Of a DNA stretch of 40,142 nt, positions 4,215-39,131 are shown one piece after another (the first letter of the stretch is position 1; each line of letters begins with the position of its first letter). The notes under the pieces are model-generated. The model saw only the letters and a program-made list of their open reading frames with translations. It was not told where the DNA came from and made no database searches. The stretch is from a virus: UHGV virus genome UHGV-0061378, one strand, 5' to 3'. A program made the position numbers and the translations under genes.

Positions 4215-4282
4215 GTCAATATTTCCTAATCCGATTTGTTGATACCGAAGCCCTGACTGTTCCCGCAGTTGGGGCTTCAACT

Positions 4283-18192: not shown

Positions 18193-19692
18193 TTAAGTTC
18201 TCCGTGCGATGGGCCTGATTGGGGCTGGTATCTTTTTCTCTTTTGGTTTTTTGATGTCGCGCATCATTTTTGCGAAGCGGCGCATCATGTATGCATAGCG
18301 AACGGCGGATAGCACGTCGTCGTTAAGCTTGACGATTTTCCCGTTTTCATCGCGGTGATAAAGGCGGAACTCCTCAAAGAATGGCTCACAGGTGTTGAAT
18401 ACTTTGAAGCGACCGTCGAGCATCATGTCTCGCAATTCAGTGATTCCAGGCTCAACAGCATTACCTCCATCAGGCCATGTCGCATGCTCCTGCAACATCA
18501 TAAATCCAGCGTCCGCATACTGCCCTTTGAGCTGCTCACCGCCGCCCTTCTCGTGCTGGTTTCCGTCATGAGGCCATGCGGTTGGCACTTTATGCGCCCA
18601 TGGTTTAACAGCTCCCCACGCCTGAACGGCTGTCTTTTCTTTCGCCTTCCAAACGCGTGAAAGGTAGATTATGTCTGCGTCCTTATCCCACCAAAGCTGA
18701 ACCTGCGCCTGCGGGTGATCCCATCCGAAATCCATACCGCCAATTACGTAGAAGTGATCAGGACACTCGAACGGCTGACACTTAATCGTCTCTTCCGGTA
18801 TCTGGAAGATTCGACCACTACCCATCGTAGGAATGCCGCGAGCTCGAGCCTCTCTCTCATGCTCTGGATAGGATGCGATGATTTGCTCTTTCTGCTCGTC
18901 GGTATAGTGCTCAGCGTCATAGATGGTCATGTTGACCACTTTCTGCGACTTGCTGGGATTCTTCAGGAACTTGGTAACAACGTCAGACATCCCCATCAGC
19001 GGGGTAAACGTCAGGATTGAGAATTGCCCGTATTTGTTGGTACGGGTAAGACCTTCGCCATAAATGCTGTATGGTGGCTCTTCGTCAAACCACACGCCGT
19101 GGATTGTGTCACCCTGCCAGCGAGCACGGCCTTGCGAGTATGGTTTGAAGTAGCAGATTGAAATGCCATCTTCAACGCCATCAGCCGTGTGATGCTTAAC
19201 CAGAAGGTGATCAACAAGGTTCGGAAAGAAAGGAGACTTCTTCCAGCTAATGATGTCCTCTTTCGGTATGGAACCGTAGCCTGGCTCATCATTCTCTTCG
19301 ATACGACCGCACAGGATGCGTTGAGTAGTTTTGGTTACAGTCTCGTTTGTCTCGCCACCAATCCAGAAGACAACAGGCTCATAGAAACGCTTACCTTTCC
19401 ACTCCCCGCCATATTTACCATCAGCCGGATAGCCTTTTGTTCCCGGATAACGCCCGGTAAGGTGAAACGCGACTTCAGCAGCACCAGTAAATGACTTACC
19501 AAGCTGGTTACCAGCCATAAAACATCGCTCTGGATAGTCATGTCCGGCGTCGATGAACTCACGCTGTTTGCTGTATGGCGTAAATTCATATAGCAGGTGT
19601 GTGTTCCGGTAGTTCTCTTCTTCTTCGAGTAGTTCGAGCAATTCGATTTGCTCTTCGTCGCTCAGGTTATCAAGAATCGCGTCCAGTTCCAC
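18193..19692 (-). CDS. Terminase large subunit, P22 gp2-like
   Basis: 499 aa (same as P22 gp2); GTG start with AAGGAG SD; directly downstream of TerS. Confidence 0.88.
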
Positions 19693-27050: not shown

Positions 27051-28427
27051 TCATACGTCAGCCCCTTGTGCATATCGTCTGCCACGTGCAGCGGGTGCAT
27101 TTGATGCTGTGCAAATCTGTCTGGCTTCATCCTGGTCACATGCAACAAAGTGTCCGTTGCAGAACCGCTGGTAAACCGTACCAAGTGAGCCAAAACGGTT
27201 TTTCGTCACAATGATTTCAGCAAATGGTGCGGCGCTACTGTTCTCGTCATATACCGCTTCCCGATAGAGCATGATGATTGAGTCTGCGTCCTGTTCAATG
27301 CTTCCTGAATCACGCAAATCTGCGTTTGTCGGGCGTTTGTTTGGTCGCTTCTCAACATCGCGCGAAAGCTGACTCAGGGAGATAACAGGCGTTTTCAGGT
27401 CTTTCGCCATCGCCTTCAGGCTTCCGGAGATGTGAGCAATTGCGAGGTCGTTGCGGTCTGCTTTCGGCTTCTCAATCAGGCCAAGATAATCCGCCATGAT
27501 GAGTGAGAGGTTTGGATTTTCCTGTTTGTGCCGTTCTGCGATTGAGCGTATTTCTTCGACCGATAACCGCGAGGCATCGACTACCCATACATCCAAATCT
27601 GCAAGCTGACTCATGCCGTTAGCAACACGCGCCCAGCCTTCGTCATCCATCGATGCAGGATTTCGCAGCACGCTAACCGACATCCTCCCGGCGTTGGCGA
27701 TGCTTCGCTCTGCAATCTGCAATGCGCTCATTTCCATCGAGAAAATCAACACTCCGCGCCGAACGTCAGAACCAGGGATAACGCGGCTTGCAACGCCTTC
27801 GGCAATCTTCAGCGCCAGCTCGGTTTTCCCCATACCAGGACGAGCGGCGATAATCACCAGGTCTTCCGCGTTCATCCCCCCGGTGATAGCGTCAAGTTCT
27901 TCGATTCCGGTCTTCAGGGTATCGGACTCTTCTCCGTTCCTCAGACGCCTGTCAAGCGTGTCAGTGTAGTCAGTAATGATTTCCCCTAACCGTACAGGTT
28001 TAACCTCGTCACGGGGCTTTCTGATGGCTGAAAGACGCTTTACAAGCTCATCCATCGCCTGACTCGATGCGTCGATGGTTCCGCTCTGAATTGGTTCACG
28101 CATTTCATCCATGATTTCCAGCACCAGACGGCGGTGATAGTTATCCGCGACCATTCCGGCATATCCCTTCAGGTTTGCGGCACTCGGGCAGTTTTTGCTG
28201 GTCATCAGGATTGACGTGAAATGCTCCTCTCCGCACGCCTCGGCAACCATCAGCGCGTCGATTAGGTTTCTGTTTCGCGCCTGCTTGCGGATAACCTCGA
28301 AGGCTTTCCGGTAGAGCGGAATTGAAAACGCTTCCGGCTCCAGCGTTGCCAGAACGTCACTGGCGGTTGGTGTTAATCCACCAATCAGCAGGCCACCGAT
28401 AACGCTCGCTTCGATATCCTGTCTCAT
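27051..28427 (-). CDS. Replicative DNA helicase, DnaB-like
   Basis: 458 aa with Walker A ([15 protein letters not shown]), ...IIMLYRE... and the usual DnaB-family layout; start coupled to the O-like stop (ATGA). Confidence 0.88.
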
Positions 28428-29371
28428 GCAATCCCCCTGTCTGCAAACTTCCCTTCCCGAACTCCCGTTAACGAGTCTTCTCTCAGCAGGTAATCAAAAT
28501 CAGCCGTCCAGCCCGTGTCGTTGTCTCCGAAGTAAAACGGCTTGGCCTGATGCACAAACGCCCTGACATACGCTCTGAAACCGTCCACGTTTGGCGTTTT
28601 CAGTTGCGGGATGATTTTCTTCAGGCGGCGTTTGCGTTTCTCGTTGACTGCAACAGCATGTGGAAGTCTGTCACCGACTTCGGTGTTGTAGGCGTTCAGG
28701 AAGGATTCGTAGTCGATTCGTTCTGCCTTGCGACGTTCAGGTTTAACCTGCCCATCGCCTCCCCCATTGGGGGGTAGGGGGGTATTATTTATATTCTTGT
28801 TAATACCTTCTTGTTCATGATGTGCGGTTGTTTGTGCGGCTTCATGTGCGCTTTCATGTGCGGCATGTGCGCTGAAAGCCGCGCCATTACTGGCTTTGTC
28901 ATGTGCGGCATCATGTGCGGTTGTTTGTGCGGCTTCATGTGCGGGTAAATTGTCCATTTTTTGAGCATACTCATGGTAATTTGTGATGGTGATCACACGA
29001 CCTTTTTGCTTCTCTCCATCAATGGAGATCATCCCCTCTTTCACAAAAACCTGAAGCATCCGCTCAACCTGATCACGGCTTGCTGGCTTGCCATGTCTGT
29101 CGCATAACTGAAGACCTAAATCAGCTGCTGTCACAACCAGTTGACCGGGTTGCAGATGCCATTCATGACCTTTGAAATTCGCTTTGTATGGCTTTCTGGC
29201 GGCATTCAGGAGAAGGTTTTCCCACAGGGTGCGAAGATAAACATCTTTCGCCCATGACTGTTTCAGAATGCTCCGGTACAACGGAATGTAACCAGTTTTC
29301 TGGTTCTCCATCCTGTTGCTCCTGCGCTCGTGTGCGGCGCTGAAATCGTAGATTTTTGCTGTATTGCTCAT
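28424..29371 (-). CDS. Replication initiation protein, O-like, containing ori iterons
   Basis: 315 aa; N-terminus [10 protein letters not shown]... resembles lambda O (MTNTAKILNF...); His/Ala-rich internal repeats are encoded by the iteron array. Confidence 0.8.
28780..28945. repeat. Origin of replication: iteron array (TCATGTGCGG-type units, two ~32-bp copies) with adjacent AT-rich tract
   Basis: Direct repeats catgtgcgg/tttgtgcgg read many times at 28815..28945, with an AT-rich stretch at 28780..28815, all inside the O-like gene. Confidence 0.8.
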
Positions 29372-29373
29372 AA

Positions 29374-29646
29374 CTACCTGCCTTGACGAAAGACCTTAAG
29401 AACATCGTTAAACTGACTTACGGATATGTCTTCTTTGAGAAGCTTTTCCAGAAATGCGTTTGGAATGAACGTATATCCCTCCTCTTTTGGTAGAGACGGG
29501 AGCAACGCCCTCGCCTCAGCTTTCAGAAGCTCAGTTCTGGCAACTTTCACAAAAGAGATTTGAGTTCTTTCATCAATGGAACGAAGGAAGCGCAAACGCT
29601 TAGCTTCTTTGTGTGTATCAGGTGGATTAAAGCCTTTGTTTCGCAT
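29374..29646 (-). CDS. Hypothetical protein between cII and the O-like gene
   Basis: 90 aa from ATG 29646 with GAGGTAA SD; the track ORF 29374..29919 extends upstream over cII in another frame. Confidence 0.55.
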   Translation of the reverse strand: MRNKGFNPPDTHKEAKRLRFLRSIDERTQISFVKVARTELLKAEARALLPSLPKEEGYTFIPNAFLEKLLKEDISVSQFNDVLKVFRQGR

Positions 29647-29668
29647 ATAATTACCTCGCTGGATGTTG

Positions 29669-29962
29669 TTAAAATTCCATTTGTATTTGATTAGAACGCT
29701 CGGTTGCCGCCGGGCGTTTTTTATTGGTGAGAATCGAAGCAACTTGTCGTGCCAATCGAGCCATGTCGTCGTCAACGACACCCCATTCAAGAACAGCAAG
29801 CAGCATTGAGAACTTTGGAATCCAGTCCCTCTTCCACCTGCTGATCTGCGACTTATCAACTCCCACAGCTTCCGCTGTCTTCTCAGTTCCAAGCATTGCG
29901 ATTTTGTTAAGCAACGCACTCTCGATTCTTAGAGCCTCGTTGCGTTTGTTTGCACGAACCAT
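29669..29962 (-). CDS. cII: Transcriptional activator CII
   Basis: 97 aa MVRANKRNEALRIESALLNKIAMLGTEKTAEAVGVDKSQISRWKRDWIPKFSMLLAVLEWGVVDDDMARLARQVASILTNKKRPAATERSNQIQMEF, near-identical to remembered lambda CII. Confidence 0.93.
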   Translation of the reverse strand: MVRANKRNEALRIESALLNKIAMLGTEKTAEAVGVDKSQISRWKRDWIPKFSMLLAVLEWGVVDDDMARLARQVASILTNKKRPAATERSNQIQMEF

Positions 29963-30021
29963 ATGTAAGTATTTCCTTAACAAATAAGAAGTTATGCGCA
30001 TCAACTTATGCGCGTTGTATT

Positions 30022-30064
30022 CCCGCATTTCGGCGGGAATGAGGACCATGACTGTTAAAGAGCG
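30022..30064 (-). promoter_or_regulatory. nutR (boxA CGCTCTTTAACA plus boxB hairpin CCCGCCGAAATGCGGG)
   Basis: Between cro and cII on the minus strand; same boxA/boxB pair as nutL. Confidence 0.75.
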
Positions 30065-30070
30065 GTGTTA

Positions 30071-30265
30071 CTATTTGTTTTTCTTGTTGCTTGGGAAAGG
30101 ACGAACTTCCTCTCCAATCACACTGCCATCAGGCTTTACCGTAACCATGATGTTACGGCCTGCCAGAATGGCCTTGCTGATAGCGCACTGGATTACACCA
30201 AAGTCACTGGCTGCTTTAGCCTGTCCATGGATTTTGGCGTAATCGGCAAGTGTCATTCGAATCAT
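30071..30265 (-). CDS. cro: Cro repressor
   Basis: 64 aa [64 protein letters not shown], resembling lambda Cro; GGAGAG SD. Confidence 0.88.
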
Positions 30266-30371: not shown

Positions 30372-31088
30372 ATGGAAAATAAAAAATCACTGACGACAGA
30401 ACAGCTCGAAGACGCTAAGCGGCTTAAGGCTTTGTATGAGTCAAAAAAGAAAGAATTGGGAATAACCCAATACTCAATCGCTGATGAACTGGGTATCACC
30501 CAAGGAGCGGTAGGGCATTATCTTAATGGCAGAAACGCGCTAAACGTTGAGGTTGCATCTGGTTTTGCACGATTGTTGCAAGTCTCAATTGCTGATTTTA
30601 GCCAGTCAATTGCTGCCAAGGTTGCAGAACAGGCAGAAAGCCTTAAGAGCGATGCCAACGTAAGGTATGCAGGGGAATACAGAGCAGGAAAGAGGTATCC
30701 GGTGTTAAGCAGTATCCAGGCTGGCTCGTGGTGTGAAGCATGCGAACCATACACCATTAAAGACATAGATGTTTGGCTTGAGTCTGACGCGCATATTCAA
30801 GGTAATGCGTTTTGGCTTAAAGTGGAAGGTGATTCAATGACGGCACCGGTTGGGTTAAGCATTCCAGAGGGAACATTCGTTCTTTTCGATACCGGAAGGG
30901 AGGCGATCAACGGCAGCTTGGTCATAGCAAAACTTTCTGACTCTAACGAAGCAACATTCAAGAAGCTGATAATCGACGGCGGAAATAAATACCTCAAGGG
31001 ACTTAATCCTGCATGGCCTCTCGTGCCAATCAATGGAAACTGCAAGATTATAGGCGTTGCAATTGAGACAAAACTAAGGCTGGTTTGA
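30372..31088 (+). CDS. cI: CI repressor (HTH plus LexA-like S24 peptidase domain)
   Basis: 238 aa; N-terminal HTH (…ELGITQYSIADELGITQGAVGHYLNG…) and C-terminal S24 region (…EGDSM…KL…); divergent from cro. Confidence 0.9.
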   Translation: MENKKSLTTEQLEDAKRLKALYESKKKELGITQYSIADELGITQGAVGHYLNGRNALNVEVASGFARLLQVSIADFSQSIAAKVAEQAESLKSDANVRYAGEYRAGKRYPVLSSIQAGSWCEACEPYTIKDIDVWLESDAHIQGNAFWLKVEGDSMTAPVGLSIPEGTFVLFDTGREAINGSLVIAKLSDSNEATFKKLIIDGGNKYLKGLNPAWPLVPINGNCKIIGVAIETKLRLV

Positions 31089-38854: not shown

Positions 38855-39131
38855 CCTGCAACTTGCAGTCAAAGGTGAATACTTCGATGCCATGATTCGC
38901 GGAGAGAAAACGGAAGAGTATCGCCTGTGTAATGACTACTGGAATAAGCGAATTATGTTCCGGGAATATGACCGCCTGATTATCACAAAGGGATATCCGA
39001 AGCGTGACGATTCCAGCCGCAGAATTGACGTTCCGTATGGCGGCTATGAAATCAAGACAATCACACATCCGCACTTCGGCGATAAACCGGTAAAGGTGTT
39101 CGCGATAAAGGTGAATATCGGCAATGAATAA
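38847..39131 (+). CDS. ASCH-domain-like protein
   Basis: 94 aa from GTG 38847 (GGAGG SD): ANLQLAVKGEYFDAMIRGEKTEEYR... fits the ASCH GxKxxExR pattern. Confidence 0.5.
   Translation: MANLQLAVKGEYFDAMIRGEKTEEYRLCNDYWNKRIMFREYDRLIITKGYPKRDDSSRRIDVPYGGYEIKTITHPHFGDKPVKVFAIKVNIGNE

What the first reader, a model, noticed from the sequence alone, without database searches (positions are those of the whole stretch)
28780..28945. Origin iterons embedded in the O-like gene encode a His-rich repeat
TCATGTGCGG-type units, including two ~32-bp copies, are translated as the HEAAQTTAH / AHxxAH repeats of the initiator, and an AT-rich tract lies beside them. This is a lambda-like ori arrangement with a different iteron sequence.
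Basis: seen in the sequence. Interest (0 to 1): 0.4.

Follow-up and report, generated by a model that had tools for sequence, protein, structure and literature searches.

The report
Phage replication origin inside initiator gene
The repeats are real and are very probably the replication origin of a P22-like phage, lying inside the gene for its own initiator protein; this is the classic lambda-type layout with a different binding-site sequence, so it is sound but ordinary.

Summary
Observation confirmed. Window 28817-28945 holds eight in-register 12-bp direct repeats (core ATGTGCGG on +, CCGCACAT on the coding strand). They form two blocks of four around a 33-bp spacer that carries a ninth, off-register copy. 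A 22-27% GC tract follows (28780-28819). All of this lies in the linker-coding part of a 315-aa O-like initiator gene (28424-29371, minus strand), upstream of a helicase 90% identical to P22 gp12.

The constraint is on DNA, not on the peptide. The 7-8 bp core spans codon boundaries. Its wobble positions are fixed while a first codon position is free. In 66 close haplotypes, core positions vary in 9/56 cases against 20/40 for non-core positions. Relatives with diverged N-domains have different repeats and unrelated peptides but the same layout. An Asp/His change at the predicted recognition helix tracks an A/G change in the core. The AT tract is invariant, and the module-swap joint lies inside it.

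Those have four palindromic ~19-bp iterons, whereas these repeats are short, direct and without dyad symmetry. Phage L's putative origin has the same two-block layout. Binding and initiation are inferred, not tested. Verdict: a new member of a known kind, of low to moderate interest.

The parts
28424..29371 (-). O-like replication initiator gene (315 aa). It contains the putative origin in its linker-coding middle.
   Evidence: ORF list. Pfam Phage_rep_O at aa 20-132, E 3e-15. Annotated 'O: phage replication protein' in CUS-3, 98.7% identical DNA.
28976..29314 (-). Coding region of the N-terminal winged-helix (Phage_rep_O) domain, the presumed iteron-binding part.
   Evidence: Pfam. AlphaFold2 pLDDT 63-85 for aa 31-137. 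Foldseek neighbours are all winged-helix DNA binders, but with weak E-values of 0.045 or more.
28898..28945 (-). Iteron block 1: four 12-bp direct units. Coding strand: CCCGCACATGAA GCCGCACAAACA ACCGCACATGAT GCCGCACATGAC.
28865..28897 (-). 33-bp (11-codon) central spacer, AAAGCCAGTAATGGCGCGGCTTTCAGCGCACAT, encoding [11 protein letters not shown]. Its length is fixed in the eight relatives laid out, and AGTAATGGCGCGGCT-like DNA recurs with every iteron type examined, including phage L. It contains the off-register ninth copy (28865-28873).
   Evidence: The ninth copy is GCA->GTA in most close haplotypes. Codon identity at conserved residues is 22/28, against 52% in the N-domain.
28817..28864 (-). 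Iteron block 2: four 12-bp direct units. Coding strand: GCCGCACATGAA AGCGCACATGAA GCCGCACAAACA ACCGCACATCAT.
28780..28816 (-). AT-rich tract, the presumed DNA-unwinding element. Coding strand: GAACAAGAAGGTATTAACAAGAATATAAATAATAC, A-rich on that strand.
   Evidence: GC 0.225-0.275. A 49-nt run with no variable site in 66 haplotypes covers 28770-28818. Codon identity at conserved residues is 45/48, against 52% in the N-domain. The module joint maps to 28788-28800.
28761..28783 (-). G/C-rich element. + strand: CCCCC ATT GGGGGG TAG GGGGGG. Coding strand: ACCCCCCTACCCCCCAATGGGGG. It sits at the start of the P22-type C-terminal module.
   Evidence: Sequence. The same element lies at the right end of the P22 rep_origin feature and in L012.
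28445..28723 (-). Coding region of the helical C-terminal domain, the presumed helicase-recruiting part.
   Evidence: AlphaFold2 helices at aa 221-306. Residues 185-309 are 58% identical to P22 gp18 residues 146-271. This domain co-occurs with DnaB-type helicase genes, whereas lambda-type C-termini co-occur with lambda P genes.
27051..28427 (-). DnaB-type replicative helicase gene, overlapping the initiator stop codon.
   Evidence: Pfam DnaB and DnaB_C, E 1e-77. 90% identical to P22 gp12.

Best explanation
This is the vegetative replication origin of a P22-like (Lederbergvirus, CUS-3/HF4s-type) temperate phage, embedded in the linker-coding part of its own initiator gene.

Inferred mechanism, by homology with lambda O and P22 gp18/gp12:
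1. The initiator's N-terminal winged-helix domain binds the eight CCGCACAT cores. These are head-to-tail, with a 12-bp period, in two blocks of four separated by 33 bp.
2. The resulting nucleoprotein complex destabilises the adjacent A-rich, 22-27% GC tract.
3. The initiator's C-terminal domain brings in the phage's own DnaB-type helicase, encoded just downstream.
4. Host primase and polymerase take over.

The AHxx/His-rich peptide is simply what the iterons spell in this frame within a disordered linker.

Shown here: the anatomy, DNA-level constraint on the core and the AT tract, co-variation of repeat and N-domain, and the module boundaries. Inferred: binding, melting and helicase recruitment.
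For: 1. Enrichment and regularity. Nine of the window's 15 core matches lie in 124 bp on one strand, with a 12-bp period.

2. Position. The repeats start right after the Phage_rep_O domain, as do the annotated iterons in lambda O and the rep_origin in P22 gene 18. An AT-rich tract follows in all three.

3. DNA-level rather than protein-level constraint.
- In 36 units from five phages the consensus is n-C-C-G-C-A-C-A-T. Positions 3, 4, 5 and 7 are invariant, including two wobble positions, while position 1 (a first codon position, giving P/A/T/S/G) is free.
- In 66 haplotypes of close relatives, core positions vary in 9/56 cases against 20/40 for non-core positions (Fisher p = 6e-4).

4. The peptide is not conserved but the layout is. 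Relatives with N-domains 47-50% identical encode SPDEPCDKPSD or VEGSDEPPV there. Phage L, with an 11-bp period, encodes no peptide repeat at all. All of them keep n units + spacer + n units + AT tract.

5. Co-variation. N-domains with S-R-D at the start of the predicted recognition helix have A at core position 6 in 35/36 units. Those with S/G-R-H have G in 16/16 units.

6. AT tract. There is a 49-nt invariant run in 66 haplotypes. Codon identity at conserved residues is 45/48, against 226/433 in the N-domain.

7. Modularity.
- The N-domain + iterons + AT tract travel together. They are joined either to a P22-type C-terminus with a DnaB-type helicase gene or to a lambda-type C-terminus with a lambda P gene.
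- The joint maps inside the AT tract.

8. Structure. AlphaFold2 gives two folded domains joined by a disordered segment, aa 138-216, which covers the whole origin.

9. No other repeat cluster or comparably AT-rich tract exists in the replication genes.

10. The literature treats this layout as the general rule for lambda, P22 and L (PMC8022706).
Against: - There is no experimental evidence for binding or for initiation at this site in this phage type. Even the P22 and L origins are annotated 'by similarity' or 'putative'.
- The repeats lack the dyad symmetry of lambda and P22 iterons, so the lambda model of dimer binding cannot simply be transferred.
- Some natural haplotypes break a core; for example, unit 6 reads ACA in 5 haplotypes.
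- Many database prophage proteins have only one block of 3-4 units. So eight sites may not be required, or those prophages may be origin-defective.
- The Asp/His versus A/G co-variation rests on about two to three independent lineages.
- The structure model is of modest confidence (mean pLDDT 59), and the fold matches are weak.
Confidence: 0.8

Rival explanations
1. The repeat is selected at the protein level. On this view the initiator needs a His/Ala-rich (for example metal-binding or flexible) linker, and the DNA repeat is a by-product of a recently duplicated peptide motif.
For: The repeat is in frame and gives a regular AHxx peptide. The period of 12 is a multiple of 3. Block duplications and deletions are always in frame, at 93 bp = 31 aa.
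Against: - Wobble positions of the core are fixed while a first codon position varies.
- His is replaced by Gln or Leu while the DNA core stays within one base (CAT->CAA, CTT).
- Relatives encode unrelated, His-free peptides in the same layout.
- Phage L has an 11-bp period and no peptide repeat.
- The segment is predicted to be disordered.
- Any insertion or deletion in an essential gene must be in frame whichever explanation holds, so the in-frame changes do not discriminate.
Confidence: 0.05
2. The repeats are real initiator-binding sites, but they serve control rather than initiation, for example titration, handcuffing, autoregulation or exclusion of related phages. The site of initiation would then be elsewhere.
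For: Iterons in plasmids have such control roles. Cloned lambda iterons inhibit rep-lambda phages (PMC3349717). Block number varies from 1 to 4 in nature.
Against: - The repeats directly abut the most AT-rich, most strictly conserved tract of the replication region.
- They sit where the lambda and P22 origins are annotated.
- No other repeat cluster or AT tract is present in the replication genes.
- Control and origin roles are not mutually exclusive.
Confidence: 0.08
3. The region is a slippage- or recombination-prone low-complexity stretch with no function.
For: It is the most polymorphic part of the gene among close relatives, and block number varies.
Against: - Polymorphism avoids the core.
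- The two-block form dominates by far: about 2,160 database member sequences, against about 160 with one block and about 55 with three or more.
- Every phage record with this N-domain has the two-block form.
- The layout is conserved in Escherichia, Klebsiella, Yersinia, Sodalis, Scandinavium, Salmonella and Enterobacter relatives.
Confidence: 0.02

Closest known systems
Bacteriophage lambda ori within gene O (iterons ITN1-4 at 39034-39118 of J02459, plus an AT-rich region)
   Same: - The origin lies inside the initiator gene, directly after a Phage_rep_O N-terminal domain, in a linker between two domains.
- Repeats are followed on the 3' side by an A-rich, AT-rich tract.
- The N-terminus [10 protein letters not shown] resembles lambda MTNTAKILNF.
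- The N-domain + ori are exchangeable against the C-domain + partner gene.
   Different: - Lambda has four 18-20-bp iterons with internal dyad symmetry, spaced 20/24/23. Here there are eight 12-bp direct repeats without dyad symmetry, in two blocks around a 33-bp spacer.
- The lambda partner is the loader P, which uses host DnaB. Here the partner is a phage DnaB-type helicase.
- N-domain similarity is detectable only at profile level.
Phage P22 gene 18 / gene 12 and its annotated rep_origin (BK000583 32840-32984)
   Same: - The helicase is 90% identical to gp12.
- The initiator C-terminal domain is 58% identical.
- The same AT-rich tract plus CCCCC-N3-GGGGG element lies at the right end of the origin.
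- Gene order is the same.
   Different: - The N-terminal domain shows no BLAST-level similarity.
- The P22 iterons are four ~20-bp palindromic repeats (TTTACCnnATCGGTAAA type) with lambda spacing.
Phage L gene 18 putative origin (MW013502 31649-31725; Zaworski et al. 2021, PMC8022706)
   Same: The layout is the same: three short direct repeats, then a spacer containing AGTAATGACGCGGCT (…SNDAA…), then three repeats, then AACAATAATATAAATAAT. It lies inside an O-like gene followed by a DnaB-like helicase gene.
   Different: - The unit is 11 bp (TGTCCAACGGA), so no peptide repeat arises.
- The N-domain is only remotely related (27 identical residues out of 103 aligned).
- The C-terminal domain is different.
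- The L origin is itself only predicted.
Iteron-type plasmid origins (pSC101, R6K, RK2, F, P1 class; from general knowledge)
   Same: They have arrays of direct repeats bound by a winged-helix initiator, next to an AT-rich unwinding element. Iteron number affects replication.
   Different: - Plasmid iterons are about 17-22 bp and lie outside the rep gene.
- They usually work together with DnaA boxes, and none is present here.
- The initiators belong to other protein families.

Membership tests
Lambda-type (O-type) origin embedded in the initiator gene | The initiator carries a Phage_rep_O N-terminal DNA-binding domain. | tested here: met
   Pfam PF04492 at aa 20-132, E 3.2e-15, 56.9 bits against a cut-off of 28.7.
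Lambda-type (O-type) origin embedded in the initiator gene | A cluster of repeats lies inside the initiator gene, directly 3' of the N-domain coding part. | tested here: met
   The repeats cover codons 143-185. Lambda iterons cover codons 117-145, and the P22 rep_origin covers codons 118-166.
Lambda-type (O-type) origin embedded in the initiator gene | An AT-rich, strand-asymmetric tract lies immediately 3' of the repeats. | tested here: met
   GC is 0.225-0.275 at 28780-28821, with 21 of 40 bases being A on the coding strand.
Lambda-type (O-type) origin embedded in the initiator gene | Four ~19-bp iterons, each with internal dyad symmetry (the dimer-binding sites seen in lambda and P22). | tested here: not met
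   There are eight 12-bp direct units and no inverted repeat in 28810-28950. Lambda and P22 show the palindromic form with the same tools.
Lambda-type (O-type) origin embedded in the initiator gene | Repeat sequence is matched to the N-domain (specificity pairing), and the N-domain + ori can be exchanged against the C-domain + partner. | tested here: met
   Repeats change with the N-domain. Asp/His tracks A/G. Partners are lambda P or a DnaB-type helicase. The joint lies in the AT tract.
Lambda-type (O-type) origin embedded in the initiator gene | The initiator binds the repeats, and replication starts there. | not testable with these tools
   This needs EMSA or footprinting, a minimal-replicon assay, or origin mapping.
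Two-block short-direct-repeat origin layout (phage L type) | n short direct repeats + a spacer with an AGTAATGRCGCGGC-like element + n repeats + an AAYAAKAATATAAATAAT-like tract. | tested here: met
   The window is 4+4 with a 33-bp spacer. The same layout occurs in L010, L011, L002, L006, L007, L096, L097, L012, L013 and phage L.
P22 gp18/gp12-type replication module | A C-terminal initiator domain homologous to gp18, with a gp12-like DnaB-type helicase gene downstream. | tested here: met
   58% identity over 126 aa. 90% identity over 458 aa.
P22 gp18/gp12-type replication module | An N-terminal domain and iterons of P22 type. | tested here: not met
   There is no BLAST similarity in the N-domain, and the iterons are different.

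The most novel reading that the evidence does not exclude
These origins, together with that of phage L and the Klebsiella, Yersinia, Sodalis and Enterobacter relatives, may form a distinct architectural class of O-type origins. In this class the initiator would bind head-to-tail as monomers to 11-12-bp direct repeats in two arrays. The deeply conserved central 33-bp spacer (AGTAATGGCGCGGCT, encoding SNGAA) would be a separate functional element, either a host-factor site or a docking motif. It is shared among origins of otherwise different specificity, which would give a complex with a geometry unlike the lambda O-some. Natural 93-bp unequal exchange (1-4 blocks) would then tune or disable origin strength and change initiator linker length at the same time.
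Probability: 0.25. Interest if true: 0.5.

Novelty: new member of a known kind. Interest (0 to 1): 0.3.

Why it matters
This origin type is carried by common E. coli and Salmonella P22-like prophages (CUS-3, HF4s, Kapi1) and by at least 48 sequenced Stx2a-converting phages. In Stx phages, replication drives toxin gene dosage after induction.

Knowing the origin, its 8-bp recognition core and a candidate specificity residue gives a concrete handle for:
- building minimal replicons;
- predicting replication compatibility between co-resident prophages;
- recognising origin-deleted cryptic prophages from sequence alone.

Conceptually it adds a well-documented example, but no new principle, to the lambda rule that the origin sits in the initiator's linker.

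Tried and rejected
1. Literature. Searches for the motif itself, and for CUS-3, HK620 or Stx origins with iterons, found no description of this iteron. The CUS-3 genome paper is not held. The 'hotspot' paper PMC6118388 concerns IncX1 iterons and is irrelevant.

2. A tenth core copy at 29331-29337, near the 5' end of the gene. It does not change with iteron type in relatives and is absent from several, so it was treated as chance.

3. The spacer as an inverted iteron. Rejected, because its sequence stays the same when the iterons change.

4. DnaA boxes. None lies near the origin; the nearest one-mismatch match is at 28286, inside the helicase gene.

5. Dyad symmetry within the array. None was found.

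6. Structured RNA. No Rfam family matches in the region.

7. Solved structures. There is no sequence match in the PDB. Foldseek gives only generic winged-helix matches with weak E-values.

8. Promoters. None is predicted in 28400-30100. The weak terminator-like hit at 28834-28851 is just two iteron cores pairing imperfectly.

9. DNA for P0077 (AQITAH-type peptide) could not be retrieved.

10. The conserved oop promoter motif from PMC3349717 is not present in the window.

Full report
CONTEXT. The replication region matches P22-like (Lederbergvirus) phages: the initiator gene is 99.1% identical in DNA to Escherichia phage HF4s and 98.7% to CUS-3. The flagged region lies inside ORF 28424-29371 on the minus strand (315 aa). 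In coding direction it sits in the order cI | cro - cII - small ORF - initiator - helicase. Pfam finds Phage_rep_O at aa 20-132 of the ORF. The overlapping downstream gene (27051-28427) has DnaB and DnaB_C domains. CUS-3 annotates the two genes as O and 'replicative DNA helicase' and carries no origin feature.

OBSERVATION. The repeats are real.
- Six in-register 35-nt copies lie at 28816-28943. Two of them are 97% identical, 93 nt apart.
- Nine of the window's 15 matches to TGTGCG[GC] fall within 124 bp on one strand.
- Period-12 arrays are also called by Tandem Repeats Finder.

Read on the coding strand, there are eight regular 12-bp units of the form nCC GCA CA[T/A] nnn. Four lie at 28898-28945 and four at 28817-28864. 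They are separated by 33 bp (28865-28897), whose last nine bases form an off-register ninth copy. The translation is [16 protein letters not shown] | [11 protein letters not shown] | [16 protein letters not shown]. It is followed by [11 protein letters not shown], which the AT-rich tract encodes.

That tract has GC 0.275 at 28780-28819. Its 40-mer minimum is 0.225 at 28782, the lowest value in both replication genes and in the lowest 0.27% of the window. It is A-rich on the coding strand. Next comes ACCCCCCTACCCCCCAATGGGGG (coding strand).

IS THE CONSTRAINT ON DNA OR ON PROTEIN? Four independent lines point to DNA.

First, 36 units were pooled from five phages whose N-domains are 72-91% identical to each other. 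Unit positions 3, 4, 5 and 7 are invariant, and positions 6 and 8 nearly so. These include the wobble bases of two codons. Position 1, a first codon position that specifies P, A, T, S or G, is free.

Second, 78 close relatives from IMG/VR give 66 distinct haplotypes.
- Core positions are variable in 9 of 56 cases and non-core positions in 20 of 40 (Fisher p = 6e-4).
- The off-register ninth copy is GCA->GTA in most haplotypes.
- Close relatives are not independent samples, so this p-value is indicative rather than exact.

Third, the peptide is not conserved while the layout is. Relatives with 66-91% identical N-domains keep AH-type units, either 3+3 or 4+4. These are Klebsiella phage 2b LV-2017, Yersinia phage vB_YenM_29.18, Sodalis and Scandinavium prophages, and a Salmonella prophage. 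Two relatives with N-domains 47-50% identical to the window's encode SPDEPCDKPSD (Salmonella phage S.Inf 5-2) or VEGSDEPPV (Enterobacter phage ENT1). These come from entirely different 12-bp-period repeats, but with the same 11-codon spacer and the same AT tract.

Fourth, phage L's gene 18 has the same layout with an 11-bp unit (TGTCCAACGGA). The repeats are therefore read in three frames and give no peptide repeat at all. Its authors annotated that region as the putative origin (PMC8022706).

The His-rich peptide is therefore a by-product. AlphaFold2 places the whole origin-encoded segment (aa 138-216) in a disordered linker, between a folded N-domain (pLDDT 63-85) and a helical C-domain.

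PAIRING WITH THE N-DOMAIN. In the model, the helix spanning aa 99-111 is the predicted recognition helix of a winged-helix fold. The Foldseek neighbours are CodY, MarR, ArsR/SmtB and TubR, with weak E-values. N-domains that begin this helix with S-R-D have A at core position 6 in 35/36 units. Those with S/G-R-H (the Scandinavium, Citrobacter and one Sodalis prophage) have G in 16/16 units. The Sodalis pair differs in both features. This suggests at least two independent switches, but the sample is small.

AT TRACT AND SPACER. Gene positions 554-602 (window 28770-28818) form a 49-nt run with no variable site in 66 haplotypes. The neighbouring repeat region is the most polymorphic part of the gene. 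Codon identity was then measured across the diverged relatives at residues that are conserved.
- N-domain: 226/433 (52%).
- AT tract: 45/48 (94%).
- Spacer: 22/28 (79%).

The AT-tract codons are mostly two-fold degenerate, which inflates the baseline somewhat. The spacer element AGTAATGGCGCGGCT recurs with every iteron type examined, including phage L. I have no tested explanation for it.

MODULARITY. The initiator's C-terminal 125 residues are 58% identical to P22 gp18, and the helicase is 90% identical to P22 gp12. The N-domain shows no BLAST similarity to gp18. The same N-domain + iteron + AT-tract module occurs with two different partners:
- a lambda-type C-terminus (SSENSGESSD…) followed by a lambda P gene (PF06992), in the Klebsiella, Yersinia and Sodalis relatives;
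- a DnaB-type helicase gene, in the window, Scandinavium, S.Inf 5-2 and ENT1.

DNA similarity maps the joint. Klebsiella phages match the window from 29030 down to 28788. HK97, sal4, 2851 and others match from 28800 down to 28720. The joint therefore lies inside the AT tract.

COMPARISON WITH LAMBDA AND P22. With the same tools, both show four 18-20-bp iterons with internal dyad symmetry, spaced 20/24/23, followed by an AT-rich tract. The window's array has no inverted repeat at all. It fits the lambda plan in position, AT tract, module logic and protein family. It fails the 'four palindromic iterons' criterion. Its nearest described relative in layout is the putative phage L origin.

COPY-NUMBER VARIATION. 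Database homologues of 88% identity or more come in several lengths. These correspond to 1, 2, 3 or 4 blocks and differ by multiples of 31 aa (93 bp), which is the distance between the two long copies.
- Two-block forms dominate, with roughly 2,160 member sequences. One-block forms number about 160, and forms with three or more blocks about 55.
- All 55 phage records that match the origin probe over its full length in one piece have the two-block form. They include the phages CUS-3, HF4s, JEP4 and Kapi1, and 48 Stx2a phages.
- Whether one-block prophages are origin-defective is unknown. From my own knowledge, the lambda in-frame ori- deletions would be the precedent for such a defect.

WHAT IS NOT SHOWN. 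Binding, melting, helicase recruitment and the actual start site are all inferred by homology. No paper in the searchable library describes this iteron.

VERDICT. It is a new member of a known kind, with a noteworthy but already precedented variant architecture of short direct repeats in two blocks. Confidence in the origin reading is 0.8. Interest is 0.3.

Noticed in passing
window 28865-28897; also L010, L011, L002, L006, L007, L012, L013, L096, L097, and L098:3700-3735: The central 33-bp spacer carries AGTAATGGCGCGGCT-like DNA (peptide SNGAA) with every iteron specificity examined, including phage L, whose N-domain is barely alignable. Codon identity there (79%) exceeds that of the N-domain (52%). 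Its function is unexplained; it could be a host-factor site or a peptide motif.
   Followed up: partly
homologues P0001-P0070 of the window gene 28424-29371: Natural variants have 1, 2, 3 or 4 iteron blocks, differing in steps of 31 aa / 93 bp. Local unit expansions also occur (P0037, P0038). The two-block form is by far the most common.
   Followed up: partly
window 28817-28945 versus 28770-28818: Among 66 close haplotypes, the iteron and spacer region is the most polymorphic part of the initiator gene, and mostly through amino-acid changes. The adjoining 49 nt of AT tract has no variable site. Two haplotypes (L016, L046) look like unit shuffling by gene conversion with length preserved.
   Followed up: partly
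window 29342-29371 (minus strand): The initiator N-terminus [10 protein letters not shown] resembles lambda O MTNTAKILNF, which I recall as a ClpX recognition signal (from memory, not tested). The extension is conserved in relatives, yet many database entries start at Met21 (295 aa), which is probably a mis-called start.
   Followed up: partly
window 29374-29646 (minus strand): A 90-aa ORF lies between cII and the initiator gene. It is conserved (86-90 aa, no Pfam family) in the Citrobacter and Salmonella prophage loci L096 and L097, but CUS-3 does not annotate it. It occupies the position of P22 orf48.
   Followed up: partly
window 29693-29729 (+ strand): A strong terminator-like hairpin (12-bp stem followed by a T run) lies antisense to the 3' end of cII, with a TATAAT-like hexamer about 50-55 nt upstream of the hairpin (near 29637-29644). 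This is the expected position and size of an oop-like antisense RNA. The lambda oop promoter motif itself is absent.
   Followed up: partly
window 4216-4282 (+ strand): An Rfam sar RNA match (71.6 bits), the antisense RNA of the P22 immI/ant region. It is consistent with a P22-like genome.
   Followed up: no
window 30571-30615 and 18259-18300: Two imperfect 21-bp tandem duplications were called by Tandem Repeats Finder. The first lies inside the cI repressor gene. Neither was examined.
   Followed up: no
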